Positions 46,785-52,408 of a DNA stretch of 64,000 nucleotides are shown here, piece after piece. Where the stretch lies: the IMG/VR virus record IMGVR_UViG_3300013121_000020, positions 290,092-354,091 of that record; one strand, 5' to 3'. Numbering within the stretch: position 1 is the first letter of the stretch; every line of letters begins with the position of its first letter. Source of the DNA: a virus (Duplodnaviria; Caudoviricetes). The notes beneath the pieces are model-generated. The model worked only from the letters and a program-made list of their open reading frames with translations. It was not told the origin of the DNA and made no database searches. The position numbers were made by a program, and so were the translations under genes.

Positions 46785-47025
46785 CTCGCTGTGATGGCTG
46801 TACTACGTACCCACAATGGCATTTTACAATCTATTCAAACCGCTAGATTGTAAAATGACTCTCACCAGTTATGGTTTGTTAATCCATGTGGTACTTGCTA
46901 ACAATTGTTGAGTTTCAATCTGTAATTGAAACTGCTTGCTTCGCAGTTACGTAGTGATTTACACTAATAGCCACCAAAGTAATGTATGACTTGTTTTTAG
47001 GCTAGTCATACATTTAATTGCGGTT
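46785..47025 (-). ncRNA. tracrRNA-like RNA copy A
   Basis: Aligns with 47127-47359 and 52169-52408, with covarying stems and an anti-repeat CAGCG at the 3' end. Confidence 0.8.
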
Positions 47026-47059
47026 GTTCTAATTATCAAAGATCGTCATAAATCTCATG

Positions 47060-47105
47060 GTGTTTCAGCGGCGATGTTCATCGGGGATACCGCGTGTGCC
47101 AGCGG
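47060..47105 (-). CRISPR. Micro-repeat array B (two remnants, 24-nt spacer)
   Basis: GTGTTTCAGCGG at 47060 and GTGCCAGCGG at 47096. Confidence 0.65.
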
Positions 47106-47126
47106 CATACTTACGGGTAGTAACAT

Positions 47127-47359
47127 CCGCTGTGGTGGCCGTATTACACACCCACATGGCACTCTGCTATTATAAGAACCGCCAAATAGCAGAACGACTC
47201 TCGCCAGTTATGGTTTGTTAATCCATGTGGTACTTGCTAACAATTATTGAGTTTCAATCTGTGATTGAAACTGCTTGCTTCGCAGTTGTGTAATGTTCAC
47301 ACTAACCACCATGTTGCATATAGCTCGTTTTTAGGCTAGCTATATGTTTTGATTGCGGT
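47127..47359 (-). ncRNA. tracrRNA-like RNA copy B
   Basis: The most diverged copy. It has compensatory changes (ATTACACA/TGTGTAAT vs ACTACGTA/TACGTAGT) and an anti-repeat CAGCGG. Confidence 0.8.
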
Positions 47360-48021
47360 CACAGTTTTTCAATACATGTATCATTAGATTCATTTATAAT
47401 GATACATCGTGAATAATCAGGCACATATGATTTAATATTGGTAGCATCAGCCCATTTTTTGAAAAATGATTTCAATTCATTCCACTGGTCCTGCGATATT
47501 TGTTCATATGCACGTTCGTGCATGTTATCTTGGATATGATCACAAACTTTGTCTTTAATATCCATTGATGATAATAATTCTTCTTTTGTAAACCATAAAT
47601 ATTCAGGACTATCACCACCACTTTCGACAATTGATTGAACGGCATCTTCAATACCGTCAAAATAATATTTATCATTAATATATAACACACCATGATAGTT
47701 TAAAGGTAATTCAGTAAGTTTTTGCGCTTTTTCAAAACGATTCTGTTCTTTTATTCTATCAAGCTTGCAGCGATGTTCACTGAAATGTTTCTTACATAGT
47801 GATTGCCAATCTGCAAACGCTTCTTCACCACAAAGTTCACAGCGATGATTGCAACATCTTTCAGCTGTTTTTCTTGCGTACTCTAGACGTGCATTTGGAG
47901 TCAATTTCTGGTTTTCAAGTGCTACTGGCGCATATTTCGCACTATGAATTGTTTGGCATTGACTACATATCCATGCGTCTAACTTCTCGCCCTGTTCATT
48001 ACATAATCGCCATGGATTCAT
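47359..48021 (-). CDS. Hypothetical Cys-rich phage protein
   Basis: 220-aa ORF with CSQC...CC..CELC...C. Confidence 0.65.
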   Translation of the reverse strand: MNPWRLCNEQGEKLDAWICSQCQTIHSAKYAPVALENQKLTPNARLEYARKTAERCCNHRCELCGEEAFADWQSLCKKHFSEHRCKLDRIKEQNRFEKAQKLTELPLNYHGVLYINDKYYFDGIEDAVQSIVESGGDSPEYLWFTKEELLSSMDIKDKVCDHIQDNMHERAYEQISQDQWNELKSFFKKWADATNIKSYVPDYSRCIIINESNDTCIEKL

Positions 48022-48050
48022 TGATTGTTGCTCACAGTTTTGTTAAATGA

Positions 48051-48362
48051 TCAGACATATAATTTCATTTCACATATGTCAGAGAACACTCGTTTGATTG
48101 CTGCTATACGCTCTTCTTTTGTAGCAAATTGTCGAGCATATAAAAACGCAATCAATTCAATGGTACCGAATCCGCCTCTACATTCTGATATATTTAGTAA
48201 TTCTTCCTGTTGGTGTCCCAAATCCACATATGATGCATATGCTTCACGGTGAAGCCATTCCGGTATCTGGATTGCCTGAGTTTGAACCGGAAACATTAGC
48301 TTATTCATATCATTTCCCTCCACATCGTTAATTAACGCATGAGCAATTGGTGCTAGATGCAC
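48051..48362 (-). CDS. Hypothetical phage protein
   Basis: IP.W....AY..Y...Q.....RGGFG..EL pattern; the true start is probably MNKLMF. Confidence 0.6.
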   Translation of the reverse strand: MHLAPIAHALINDVEGNDMNKLMFPVQTQAIQIPEWLHREAYASYVDLGHQQEELLNISECRGGFGTIELIAFLYARQFATKEERIAAIKRVFSDICEMKLYV

Positions 48363-50471: not shown

Positions 50472-51308
50472 GTGGGTAGAGTTATTAGTGGCATACACGC
50501 CGCAGCTAAATTGAGACAAGACATAAAATCAATGATTGACGTTAAAAATCCACCACATCTTGGGGTGATACTTTACTCTGATGATCATGCCAGTAAATTG
50601 TATATTAAAAAGAAACAAGAAGCATGTGCGGAAGTTGGTATTAAAAGCACACTAATCAGACCACGTACTAAAGCACAACTATTTAAAACAATTCACCGTT
50701 TAAACGATGATAAAGAATATCATGGAATAATTGTGCAACTGCCTCTTCCTAAACAAATAAATGTACACACAGTCTTTGATAATATAAACCCACTCAAAGA
50801 TGTCGACGCATTTCACCCTAGCAACATAGGTTTATTATTGCAAGGGAGACCTAGATTTATACCATGCACACCACATGGTATTCAATATTTGTTGAGCTAT
50901 CATAATATAGGAACAGTTGGTAAAAAGATTGTTATTATTAATAGGTCTGATATAGTCGGAAAGCCGTTGGCGGCATTATTGATGCAAGATCAATTAAACG
51001 CTAATGGCACTGTTGTTGTGTGTCATGATAAAACGCCAAGACCTATATTATATGAATTATGCCTTTCTGCTGATATAATAATAACTGCTGTTGGTCGTCC
51101 AAATTTTTTGACGCCAAACATGGTTACGAGTGAGTCGGTTGTGGTTGATGTTGCGATTAATAGAGTTGATGGAAAAATAGTTGGAGATGCGCATAAAAAT
51201 GTGTGTCAAAAAGTGCAGGCGATAACGCCTGTTCCGGGCGGAGTTGGGCCAATGACTGTTGCTATGTTGTTGTACAACACTGCTATGGCGTGTCGTGCGA
51301 TAGCATAA
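50472..51308 (+). CDS. folD: Methylenetetrahydrofolate dehydrogenase/cyclohydrolase
   Basis: YIKKK, GIIVQLPLP, KDVD, PCTP, RSDIVGKP and ITPVPGGVGPMT motifs. Confidence 0.95.
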   Translation: MGRVISGIHAAAKLRQDIKSMIDVKNPPHLGVILYSDDHASKLYIKKKQEACAEVGIKSTLIRPRTKAQLFKTIHRLNDDKEYHGIIVQLPLPKQINVHTVFDNINPLKDVDAFHPSNIGLLLQGRPRFIPCTPHGIQYLLSYHNIGTVGKKIVIINRSDIVGKPLAALLMQDQLNANGTVVVCHDKTPRPILYELCLSADIIITAVGRPNFLTPNMVTSESVVVDVAINRVDGKIVGDAHKNVCQKVQAITPVPGGVGPMTVAMLLYNTAMACRAIA

Positions 51309-51328
51309 TGCTATCGGACCGCTTCGAC

Positions 51329-51721
51329 GTGTCAGCAGCGGATATATTATCGGCAAGTCGCAGGTCCGGTGTCAGCGAATGTGTGGCGGTAGCGTGTCCG
51401 CCAATGTCTGTGATGATACCCTGGCCGGTGTCAGCGGATTATTCATCTTATAAATCCTATCAATTTTTCGCGTTCTTCTTCGTTCATGGCGTCTCATTCT
51501 TCGTTGGTGATACCGAGTTCATCGTGTCAGCGGCTGTTTCTTTTTGAAGCCGTTAATAATGTTTTTGATGGTGGTGTGGCAGCTGCGTCGTGTCAACGGT
51601 TTTTCTGGTGTTATTGATATACTGTCTGGGCACACTGTGGTGTCAGCGGTTAATTACAATGGTCCGCGAGTTCTGCGGTGTCAGCAGATGCTTTTTGCAT
51701 TATCATTGTCTGGGTCAGGAT
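51329..51721 (-). CRISPR. Degenerate/micro-repeat trailer of the array
   Basis: One near-full repeat at 51524-51559, plus remnants at 51329, 51369, 51428, 51590, 51640 and 51678 that keep mainly the GTGTCAGCGG end. Confidence 0.75.
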
Positions 51722-52048
51722 GTATCAGCGGTTGTTTCTTTCTGAAGCCGTTGACATCTCTTCCTTCGCGTCCTCGTCCATCTCTTCAGACACGTGTCAG
51801 CGGTTGTTTCTTTCTGAAGCCGTTGACATGTTCGTCTGGCCAGTTCTTCCGATTGCCATGATGGCGTGTCAGCGGTTGTTTCTTTCTGAAGCCGTTGACA
51901 TCCGATTCGTGGTACTCACGATTTCGGCGTACGGAAACGTGTCAGCGGTTGTTTCTTTCTGAAGCCGTTGATATTTGCGGTTCAGCGCGACCAGCTTCGA
52001 GAACGTCCAGTGGTGTCAGCGGTTGTTTCTTTCTGAAGCCGTTGATAT
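51722..52048 (-). CRISPR. CRISPR array, five 36-nt repeats and four 36-38 nt spacers
   Basis: Plus-strand repeat GTGTCAGCGGTTGTTTCTTTCTGAAGCCGTTGA(C/T)AT at 51722, 51794, 51866, 51939 and 52013. Minus orientation is inferred from degeneracy on the left and from tracr pairing. Confidence 0.96.
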
Positions 52049-52100
52049 AGTGTGATCTTTACGATTCACGGCGACGGCGTTCCGCTATATGTTTTGATAT

Positions 52101-52167
52101 TTTTTGCGAGTGATAGTATCGCACATCGATTTTTAGAGTAATCGCACGATACTATCACTCGCAAAAA
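52101..52167. terminator. 21-bp perfect inverted repeat between the array and tracr copy C
   Basis: TTTTTGCGAGTGATAGTATCG (52101-52121) / CGATACTATCACTCGCAAAAA (52147-52167). Its function as a terminator or processing site is inferred. Confidence 0.55.
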
Positions 52168-52168
52168 T

Positions 52169-52408
52169 CCGCTGTGATGGCTGTACTACGTACCCACAAT
52201 GGCGTACTATTATCTATTCAAACCGCTAGATAAATAGTACGACTCTCACCAGTTATGGTTCGTTAACCCCTGTGGTACTTGCTAACAATTGTTGAGCTTC
52301 AATCTATGATTGAAACTGCTTGTTTCGCATTTACGTAATGATTTACACTAATGGCCATCATAATACGCATGGCTTGTTTTAAGGCTAGCCATACGCTGTG
52401 ATGCGGTT
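52169..52408 (-). ncRNA. tracrRNA-like RNA copy C
   Basis: Closest in sequence to copy A. It shares the upstream GATCTTTGATAAT -10-like element with copy A and lies next to the full array. Confidence 0.82.

What the first reader, a model, noticed from the sequence alone, without database searches (positions are those of the whole stretch)
46785..52408. The ~240-nt RNA has Cas12b-like tracr topology with a large inserted domain, supported by covariation among three paralogs
Seen (copies at 46785-47025, 47127-47359 and 52169-52408, read on minus): a 5' hairpin with compensatory changes, an outer stem GGUGGCU/AGCCAUC, a conserved bulge containing GUGU, and an inner stem ACUACGUA/UACGUAGU (AUUACACA/UGUGUAAU in B). 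The inner stem encloses about 160 nt with further hairpins, one with a rewritten stem but a constant GCGGUU loop. The anti-repeat CAGCGG follows. Several plus-strand A-C oppositions become G-U on minus, supporting that orientation. Known: the AacCas12b tracr pairs the last repeat bases through a bulge and the preceding bases through a 3' anti-repeat. Inference: GUGU pairs with ACAC and CAGCGG pairs with CCGCUG. The GCGGUU loop may form a pseudoknot with the 5' ACCGC. The large RNA may compensate for the small protein.
Basis: partly seen in the sequence, partly recalled or inferred. Interest (0 to 1): 0.85.

Follow-up and report, generated by a model that had tools for sequence, protein, structure and literature searches.

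The report
Phage Cas12b-like guide-RNA scaffold, three copies
A 354-kb phage carries three copies of a 240-nt folded RNA that is very probably the helper (tracrRNA-type) scaffold of its half-size Cas12b-like nuclease; the layout matches Cas12b guide RNAs except for a large extra domain, which gives a rare and compact new variant of a known system.

Summary
Observation confirmed and interpretation supported. The three copies (46785-47025, 47126-47360, 52168-52408, minus strand) are 80-85% identical. They keep 98.7% of 76 predicted pairs, 14 of them through double changes, against 0-1 in slid controls. A model built from them finds one orthologue (82 bits, E 3e-20, about 54% identical) directly behind the closest effector homologue in another huge phage, which raises covarying pairs to 35 of 76.

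The element order is 5' hairpin, outer stem, GUGU, inner domain, outer stem, anti-repeat. This matches the solved ChCas12b sgRNA. The 660-aa effector model is closest to Cas12b (TM 0.60).

The anti-repeat covaries with its partner across loci:
- CAGCGG:CCGCUG in the window
- GGCAA-tetraloop-UUGCC in the orthologue
- CAUCAC:GUGAUG in a third lineage

GUGU, ACAC and the GCGGUU loop stay constant. Copies A and B are fused in cis to a repeat remnant; copy C lies upstream of the array.

Not shown: expression, the GCGGUU:AACCGC pseudoknot, and any compensating role for the large domain. Rfam has no match. This scan has noted fused scaffold plus mini-array cassettes in other phage genomes (Cas12f/TnpB lineages). 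This is a new variant of a known kind, of moderately high interest.

The parts
46785..47025 (-). Scaffold copy A. 5' AACCGC 47020-47025; hairpin H1 46983-47012; outer stem 46970-46976 with 46792-46798; GUGU 46961-46964; inner stem 46948-46954 with 46803-46809; inserted domain 46810-46947 with GCGGUUUGAA loop 46834-46843; anti-repeat CAGCGA 46786-46791.
47126..47360 (-). Scaffold copy B, the most diverged paralogue (80% identity). Inner stem UUACACA/UGUGUAA; 5' GACCGC; anti-repeat CAGCGG 47127-47132.
52168..52408 (-). Scaffold copy C, upstream of the main CRISPR array. It is the candidate trans-acting tracrRNA. Anti-repeat CAGCGG 52169-52174.
46649..46784 (-). Tail of copy A. A 19-nt linker, then the cis repeat remnant CCGCUGACGU (46766-46757) that closes a hairpin with the anti-repeat, then four more about 10-nt repeat remnants (minus-strand starts 46742, 46709, 46694, 46659) with short guides.
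47060..47125 (-). Tail of copy B. A 21-nt linker, the cis repeat remnant CCGCUGGCAC (47105-47096), a guide, and a second remnant CCGCUGAAACAC (47071-47060).
52101..52167 (-). Long near-perfect hairpin directly after the anti-repeat of copy C, before a roughly 50-nt leader and the first repeat. A hairpin of like size and position follows the L008 scaffold.
   Evidence: (a spurious mir-471 hit marks the hairpin)
51329..52048 (-). CRISPR array read on the minus strand. The 36-nt repeat ends in CCGCUGACAC. Units on the trailer side (51329-51731) keep essentially only those last 10 nt.
48328..50310 (-). 660-aa type V effector. RuvC D405/E509/D601 and the CxxC...CxxC zinc ribbon are invariant in the family alignment. 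The predicted fold is closest to Cas12b.

Best explanation
The 240-nt element is the guide-RNA scaffold (tracrRNA/omega-RNA type) of the adjacent 660-aa Cas12b-like nuclease. It is transcribed from the minus strand.

Its core has the Cas12b order. A 5' hairpin is followed by an outer stem. Just inside the 5' strand of that stem lies a short anti-repeat, GUGU. Just after its 3' strand lies a second anti-repeat, CAGCGG. The last 10 nt of a CRISPR repeat, CCGCUG+ACAC, pair with these two sites as a 6-bp duplex plus a 4-bp pseudoknot duplex, which places the spacer at the nuclease (inferred).

Where Cas12b has a short stem 3, this RNA has a 138-nt branched domain closed by a covarying inner stem.

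Copy C would act in trans on the main array. In copies A and B the anti-repeat is joined by a 19-21-nt linker to a repeat remnant, so the same duplex closes in cis as a natural single guide, followed by further micro-repeat:guide units.

What is shown: the structure, its covariation, the orthologue next to the homologous effector, and covariation of anti-repeat with repeat.

What is inferred: transcription, protein binding, the pseudoknots, processing, and the target type (DNA or RNA).
For: Structure within the window:
- The three paralogues keep 98.7% of 76 pairs, 14 of them with double changes against 0-1 in slid controls.
- The helices hold 15 G.U pairs against 2 A.C oppositions, which fits the minus strand, the strand of the effector.

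Orthologue in a second phage:
- Model R1, built from the window copies alone, hits L006:12130-12407 at 82 bits, E 2.6e-20. The hit starts 79 nt after the stop codon of the closest effector homologue, on the same strand, in a second huge phage.
- With this orthologue (51-55% identity), 35 of 76 pairs change on both sides against 2-4 in slid controls, and 96.9% of cells are paired.

Anti-repeat and repeat covary by locus:
- Window: CAGCGG with CCGCUG.
- L006: GGCAA-CUCU-UGCC followed by GACAC.
- L008: CAUCAC with the repeat's GUGAUG...ACAC. That RNA has the same topology and folds with z -6.6.

Short duplex and repeat end:
- GUGU and ACAC are constant in all these loci. Repeats of the cas1/cas2/cas4-linked relatives also end in GACAC or AACAC.
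- Variation in the 19 repeat remnants is 13 transitions to 4 transversions, against 136:187 in chance matches elsewhere in the genome. The transitions leave G.U wobbles with GUGU and CAGCGG.

Effector:
- It is a type V nuclease by Pfam, NCBIfam and PDB profile (Cas12b 1e-32, Cas12g 5e-32). Foldseek's best match is Cas12b at TMq 0.60.

Literature:
- The element order equals the ChCas12b sgRNA.
- Two-duplex pseudoknots are typical of V-B, V-F and V-G and of TnpB omega-RNA.
Against: - There is no direct evidence of transcription, RNA ends or protein binding.
- Only two lineages align (window and L006). L008 matches by topology and motifs only, not by nhmmer or the covariance model.
- The 35-pair count comes from a model-fitted alignment.
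- GUGU:ACAC never covaries. Folding alone pairs UGUA with UACA in cis.
- The main duplex is only 6 bp, against 10-30 bp in Cas12b.
- The full repeat can fold on itself, and folds better on the plus strand.
- The L006 effector is split by a frameshift, so that system may be decaying.
Confidence: 0.85

Rival explanations
1. The elements are right-end omega/reRNAs of an IS200/IS605-type transposon that encodes a TnpB. The three copies would be transposon ends, and the sequences after ACAC would be flanking DNA rather than chosen guides.
For: The effector matches the TnpB subfamily model at 1e-9. In L006 the scaffold ends in a tetraloop hairpin plus a single guide, exactly like an omega-RNA. Scaffold sizes fit omega-RNAs.
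Against: There is one effector gene for three RNA copies. The RNAs do not overlap the ORF. A spacer-bearing array follows copy C, and remnant:guide units follow copies A and B. More distant relatives sit beside cas4-cas1 and cas2. No transposase was seen among the ORFs tested around the locus. The exact repeat end CCGCTGACAC occurs only in the array. The closest solved relatives are Cas12b and Cas12g, not TnpB.
Confidence: 0.05
2. Only copy C is functional. Copies A and B are decaying duplicates, and their fused tails are accidents of deletion.
For: A and B form a tandem duplication (the shared linker). Copy A's anti-repeat has a mismatch (CAGCGA). Some gaps between remnants are too short for guides (5-16 nt). 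B's last remnant is followed by the upstream flank of copy A.
Against: B differs from A and C at 20% of positions yet keeps 69 of 70 helix pairs, with double changes concentrated in stems. That indicates selection on structure after the duplication. The remnants keep pairing with GUGU and CAGCGG through wobbles. L006 has only the fused form.
Confidence: 0.1
3. It is a structured RNA unrelated to guiding, such as a phage regulatory sRNA, a ribozyme or a riboswitch, that happens to lie near the nuclease. Alternatively it is transcribed from the plus strand.
For: The plus strand also folds well (z -4.5). The full CRISPR repeat forms a perfect 10-bp hairpin only on the plus strand (sequence). Rfam offers no tracrRNA match.
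Against: The 3' anti-repeat changes together with the local repeat in three loci. In L006 and L008 the RNA lies directly downstream of the effector on the effector's strand. The helices hold 15 G.U against 2 A.C. No Rfam family reaches its threshold.
Confidence: 0.03

Closest known systems
Cas12b (type V-B) tracrRNA:crRNA / sgRNA (ChCas12b, AacCas12b, BthCas12b, BhCas12b; PMC12204704, PMC11246509)
   Same: Same order of elements: 5' hairpin, stem 2 5' strand, short anti-repeat that pairs the last 4-5 repeat bases, internal stem, stem 2 3' strand, 3' anti-repeat. The repeat ends in ...CAC. The effector fold is the closest match (TMq 0.60).
   Different: The protein is 660 aa, not about 1100. 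The internal stem is replaced by a 138-nt branched domain. The long duplex is 6 bp rather than 10-30 bp. Only about 10 nt of the repeat is needed. Cis-fused copies exist. The phage has no cas1, cas2 or cas4. The NCBIfam Cas12b score of 39.9 is far below the cut-off of 150.
Cas12g (type V-G) tracrRNA (PMC10511118)
   Same: Two stems plus two anti-repeat regions form two R:AR duplexes. The family profile matches Cas12g at 5e-32 over most of its length. The protein size is similar (767 aa).
   Different: The Cas12g tracrRNA is 94 nt. Cas12g cuts RNA, while the target type here is unknown. The window protein alone does not hit Cas12g by sequence.
TnpB omega-RNA / reRNA (ISDra2; PMC10097598)
   Same: A long scaffold. 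The guide-adjacent bases pair with an upstream segment to form the pseudoknot. A natural tetraloop joins the tracr-like and crRNA-like parts, as in L006 and in looser form in copies A and B.
   Different: There is no transposon context. The RNA is separate from the ORF. There are multiple RNA copies per nuclease. A real spacer array is present. The protein is larger, with a Cas12b-like REC lobe.
TranC, transposon-CRISPR intermediates (Jin et al., Cell 2025, as summarised in PMC13565253 and bioRxiv 10.64898/2026.03.27.714800)
   Same: A compact effector with a short array and no adaptation genes. Fused and split guide formats exist for one scaffold. Some members are phage-borne.
   Different: Placement in a TranC clade was not tested. 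The nearest solved relatives are Cas12b and Cas12g rather than IS605/IS607 TnpB. Relatives with cas1/2/4 suggest descent from a full CRISPR system, so the fused forms may be secondary.
Cas12f (type V-F) sgRNA
   Same: A miniature effector with a long, multi-stem tracrRNA, a pseudoknot and two R:AR duplexes. The best Pfam and NCBIfam names are Cas12f-type.
   Different: Foldseek ranks Cas12f below Cas12b, Cas12g and Cas12h (TMq about 0.3). The NCBIfam Cas12f2 score of 50.9 is far below the cut-off of 450.

Membership tests
Type V tracrRNA with two repeat:anti-repeat duplexes (V-B/V-F/V-G kind) | Encoded beside a Cas12 effector with an intact RuvC site | tested here: met
   Pfam TNB domain 8e-10. 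D405/E509/D601 are invariant. PDB profile matches Cas12b and Cas12g at 1e-32. Foldseek best match is Cas12b.
Type V tracrRNA with two repeat:anti-repeat duplexes (V-B/V-F/V-G kind) | 3' anti-repeat complementary to the repeat of the associated array | tested here: met
   CAGCGG pairs with CCGCUG in all repeat units. The pair is replaced by GGCAA:UUGCC in L006 and by CAUCAC:GUGAUG in L008.
Type V tracrRNA with two repeat:anti-repeat duplexes (V-B/V-F/V-G kind) | Short internal anti-repeat that pairs the guide-adjacent repeat bases (pseudoknot) | tested here: inconclusive
   GUGU lies at the Cas12b position and is complementary to ACAC in every locus. Remnant variants keep wobble pairing (13 transitions to 4 transversions). 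There is no covariation, and a cis alternative UGUA/UACA exists.
Type V tracrRNA with two repeat:anti-repeat duplexes (V-B/V-F/V-G kind) | Long (10-30 bp) repeat:anti-repeat duplex | tested here: not met
   Only 6 bp in the window, 5 bp in L006 and 6-8 bp in L008.
Type V tracrRNA with two repeat:anti-repeat duplexes (V-B/V-F/V-G kind) | Expressed as a small RNA bound by the effector | not testable with these tools
   No RNA run is listed for this DNA.
Any Rfam RNA family | Score at or above the family's gathering threshold | tested here: not met
   Three sub-threshold chance hits only, none on the scaffolds themselves.
TnpB omega-RNA (IS200/IS605 right-end RNA) | Overlaps the 3' end of tnpB at a transposon right end, with a single fused guide | tested here: not met
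   The RNAs lie 79 nt (L006) to about 1 kb (window) from the ORF. There are three copies per effector, with arrays. Only the fused guide is shared.
TranC (transposon-CRISPR intermediate) | Compact TnpB-derived effector with a CRISPR array, no adaptation genes, and both fused and split guide formats | tested here: inconclusive
   There is no Cas1 in the 98%-complete genome, and both formats are encoded. Clade placement was not tested, and the nearest solved relatives are Cas12b and Cas12g.
Cas12b (effector) | NCBIfam equivalog score and about 1100-aa architecture | tested here: not met
   39.9 bits against a cut-off of 150. 660 aa. Fold similarity only, TMq 0.60 and TMt 0.42.

The most novel reading that the evidence does not exclude
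One half-size Cas12b-like phage nuclease is served by a single scaffold in two natural formats. In trans it works as a tracrRNA with an array whose functional repeat is only its last 10 nt. In cis it works as ready-made single guides. The three lineages (single-guide only in L006, both formats in the window, array only in L008) would capture interconversion between omega-RNA-like guides and CRISPR arrays on the Cas12b/g branch. The 138-nt inserted domain, tied to the 5' end by an AACCGC:GCGGUU pseudoknot, would take over scaffold functions of protein domains that Cas12b has and this protein lacks.
Probability: 0.3. Interest if true: 0.8.

Novelty: new variant of a known kind. Interest (0 to 1): 0.62.

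Why it matters
The finding defines the guide RNA for a very rare clade of 655-660-aa Cas12b-like nucleases. The exhaustive search found only a handful of relatives, and Rfam has no family for the RNA.

The structure model is covariation-backed. The crRNA handle is only 10 nt, and natural single-guide designs are already present. Together these are what is needed to reconstitute and test a compact editor candidate.

The locus also gives a natural case for studying two questions: how tracrRNA+crRNA and fused guides interconvert, and how RNA size trades against protein size in type V systems.

Tried and rejected
More orthologues:
- The word-based protein search found only the query itself.
- tblastn-confirmed scans of viral contigs with three effector queries found nothing.
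- An exact 18-mer and a three-motif pattern in viral contigs gave no match and 9 chance matches respectively.
- The stricter pattern in metagenome contigs gave 1 chance match.
- R1 and nhmmer found nothing in the loci of more distant effectors, L005 and L007-L012, or L023-L025. L008 is therefore linked by topology and motifs only.

Expression: no RNA holder is listed. The one DNA run laid (activated sludge, small share) gave a single 486-nt contig identical to 46500-46973, plus unrelated folD pieces.

Targets:
- No convincing match of any spacer or guide was found in the phage's own genome or in the fetched loci.
- BLAST of the array and of cassettes A and B against GenBank phages gave only chance-level hits.

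Rejected ideas:
- RNAalifold's closing helix, 5' CCGC with 3' GCGG, is rejected because the L006 anti-repeat cannot form it.
- A pseudoknot partner for the L008 GGCUUG loop could not be assigned, since CAAGCU and AAGCC are both possible.
- The two small ORFs between the effector and copy B have no counterparts in related loci.
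Full report
Context. The window is the last 64 kb of a 354,091-bp virus record estimated 98% complete. On the minus strand the locus reads, from high to low coordinates:
- scaffold copy C (52408-52168)
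- a long hairpin (52167-52101)
- a CRISPR array (52048-51329)
- folD on the opposite strand (50472-51308)
- a 660-aa effector (50310-48328)
- two small ORFs
- copy B (47360-47126) with a short tail
- copy A (47025-46785) with a tail

Observation. The three copies align over about 245 nt at 80-85% identity, and there are no further copies in the genome. RNAalifold on a MAFFT alignment gives 76 pairs in ten helices.
- the 5' hairpin
- the outer stem UGGUGGC/GCCAUCA
- an invariant UUAGUGU bulge
- the inner stem, with three double changes in copy B
- a 14-bp hairpin whose stem is rewritten around a constant GCGGUU loop

On that structure-blind alignment 98.7% of cells pair and 14 pairs change on both sides. 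Slid controls give 0-1, and no shuffle of 500 reaches the observed value. Copy A folds with a z-score of -5.8. The helices contain 15 G.U pairs and 2 A.C oppositions, so the minus strand is the RNA strand. Rfam has no family for the element. One number needs correcting: the inner stem encloses 138 nt, not about 160.

Orthologue. The effector has no near relative in the word-indexed search. The exhaustive search found 126 relatives. The closest is a gene split into 313-aa and 376-aa halves (45-48% identity) in another huge phage of 369,613 bp, GCA_902731625.1.

Model R1, built only from the three window copies, hits that phage once. The hit is 79 nt downstream of the effector stop codon on the same strand, at 82 bits and E 2.6e-20. 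The RNA there is 51-55% identical. With it, 35 of 76 pairs show changes on both sides, against 2-4 in slid controls. That includes 6 of 7 pairs in the inner stem, 5 of 8 in helix 8 and 10 of 14 in the GCGGUU hairpin. This alignment is model-fitted, which inflates pairing somewhat. The stems concerned are plainly rewritten in the raw sequence.

Pairing with the repeat. On the minus strand the 36-nt repeat ends in CCGCUGACAC. The trailer-side units, and the units behind copies A and B, keep little else.

The scaffold offers CAGCGG directly after the outer stem and GUGU directly inside it. In L006 the scaffold ends ...CAC-GGCAA-CUCU-UGCC-GACAC-guide. The long duplex has changed on both strands and is closed by a tetraloop, while GUGU and ACAC are unchanged.

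A third lineage is L008, with a 655-aa effector at 25-28% identity. It has:
- a strongly folded RNA of about 270 nt (z -6.6)
- the same order of elements: hairpin, 10-bp outer stem, bulge with AGUGU, 8-bp inner stem around a branched domain of about 155 nt, then CAUCAC
- an array whose repeat ends GUGAUGUCUGACAC and decays into 12-nt remnants

No sequence homology of the L008 RNA was detectable, so it supports the topology and not the alignment.

Repeats of the cas4-cas1/cas2-linked relatives also end in GACAC or AACAC.

An unbiased scan for 10-mers within two mismatches of the repeat end finds 13 transitions and 4 transversions in the locus. Chance matches elsewhere in the genome give 136 to 187. 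Each transition leaves a G.U wobble with GUGU or CAGCGG on the minus strand.

Comparison with known guide RNAs. In the solved ChCas12b sgRNA:
- stem 1 is a 5' hairpin
- stem 2 is formed by -69..-64 with -33..-28
- repeat bases -5..-1 pair with -60..-56, inside stem 2
- repeat bases -10..-6 pair with -27..-23, directly after stem 2

That is the order found here, with the 138-nt domain in place of stem 3. V-B, V-F and V-G guide RNAs share the long plus short duplex with a pseudoknot. The Cas12g tracrRNA has two stems and two anti-repeats. The TnpB omega-RNA forms the same guide-adjacent pseudoknot and has a natural tetraloop joining its two halves. The topology is therefore Cas12b-like but not exclusive to Cas12b.

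The effector. By sequence it carries the Cas12f1-like TNB domain. It scores below cut-off on the Cas12f2, Cas12b and TnpB models. A profile of the family matches Cas12b (1.4e-32) and Cas12g (5.4e-32) best. An AlphaFold model (pLDDT 74) is closest to BthCas12b and AacCas12b at TMq 0.60, ahead of Cas12X2, Cas12g and Cas12h. The catalytic D/E/D and the zinc-ribbon cysteines are invariant in the family alignment. The phage has no Cas1.

Cis and trans forms. In copy B the scaffold ends CAGCGG, followed by a 21-nt linker and CCGCUGGCAC. In copy A it ends CAGCGA, followed by a 19-nt linker and CCGCUGACGU. Both are followed by guides and further remnants.

The linkers resemble a shortened 5' part of the repeat; this is my reading of the sequence. 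A and B are thus a scaffold abutting a first repeat, in effect natural single guides.

Copy C has instead the long hairpin and a roughly 50-nt leader before the array. A hairpin of like size and position follows the L008 scaffold.

The direction of change cannot be decided. The fused form could be ancestral, as in an omega-RNA, or re-fused. Relatives with full adaptation modules argue for re-fusion, and the L006 tetraloop argues for an omega-like state.

Second pseudoknot. 5' AACCGC and the GCGGUU loop are perfectly complementary, and both are unchanged in L006, where every neighbouring stem has been rewritten. In copy B, GACCGC still pairs through a wobble. RNAalifold's alternative, 5' CCGC with the 3' anti-repeat, fails in L006. 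No covariation is available, so this remains a reasonable but untested proposal; I put it at about 0.4.

RNA size against protein size. Between the two anti-repeats lie:
- about 170 nt in the 655-660-aa phage proteins
- about 90 nt in a candidate tracrRNA of a 768-aa relative (inferred by complementarity only)
- about 30 nt in Cas12b

Limits. There is no evidence on expression, RNA ends, processing, target type or targets. Only two alignable lineages exist, so a formal covariation test (R-scape) is not possible.

Verdict. It needs four refinements: the copies are guide-RNA scaffolds in both cis and trans formats, the topology is common to the Cas12b/f/g and TnpB guide RNAs, the long duplex is unusually short, and two inferences remain open. 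Notes from this scan report fused scaffold plus mini-array cassettes in other phage genomes of Cas12f/TnpB lineages. I did not test those.

Noticed in passing
window 50472-51308 (+): A complete folD gene (THF dehydrogenase/cyclohydrolase, Pfam 2e-54) sits on the opposite strand between the CRISPR array and the effector. The array transcript would therefore run antisense into it.
   Followed up: no
window 51329-52048; repeat units: The 36-nt repeat is an imperfect palindrome, AUGUCAACGG-16 nt-CCGCUGACAC. It has two A.C mismatches on the minus strand and is a perfect 10-bp stem with G.U pairs on the plus strand. Its two halves mimic the anti-repeat-loop-repeat hairpin of the fused copies.
   Followed up: partly
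window 47020-47033, 52403-52416; L006:12130-12140: The 5' flank of the scaffolds (AGAACAACCGC, or GAAAUAACCGC in L006) resembles the inner part of the window repeat (AGAAACAACCGC). This could be chance or shared origin. A conserved TTTGATAAT / TTTGAAAT box lies just upstream and could be a -10 element.
   Followed up: no
L008:5880-6700: A distantly related phage-type locus has an array whose 36-nt repeats decay into about 12-nt remnants (GAUGAUCGACAC) with shorter spacers. This is the same micro-repeat phenomenon as in the window.
   Followed up: partly
L006:10001-12051; L023:5068-6975 (also L024, L025): The closest effector homologue is split into two overlapping ORFs (313 + 376 aa). Another relative is split 298 + 332 aa in three independent contigs. 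These could be frameshifts, decay or natural two-part forms.
   Followed up: no
window 52101-52167; L008:5659-5716: Long hairpins of about 56-67 nt, both beginning GCGAG, lie directly after the anti-repeat and before the leader in two lineages. They may be a processing site or a boundary element.
   Followed up: partly
window 47060-47071 and 47030-47059: The last repeat remnant of cassette B is followed directly by the upstream flank and start of copy A, so B, its guides and A may be one transcript.
   Followed up: no
G000:C1:176734-178263 (outside the window; L027:1120-2649): A second ORF of 509 aa has a weak, sub-threshold Cas12f1-like TNB match (18.8 bits). It is unrelated in sequence to the 660-aa effector.
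   Followed up: partly
window 52536-53438 (+); L023:895-1901: A 300-aa protein with a TIGR02996 repeat domain lies next to copy C. It has a 28-34% identical relative near the split effector in L023.
   Followed up: no
L010:7735-10600; L011:9555-9744: Bacterial relatives of the effector (711-768 aa) sit beside a cas4-cas1 fusion, cas2 and large arrays whose repeats end in GACAC or AACAC. A candidate tracrRNA lies at L010:7340-7530, with GUGUC at 7420 and CAAUGAGAAA at 7516.
   Followed up: partly
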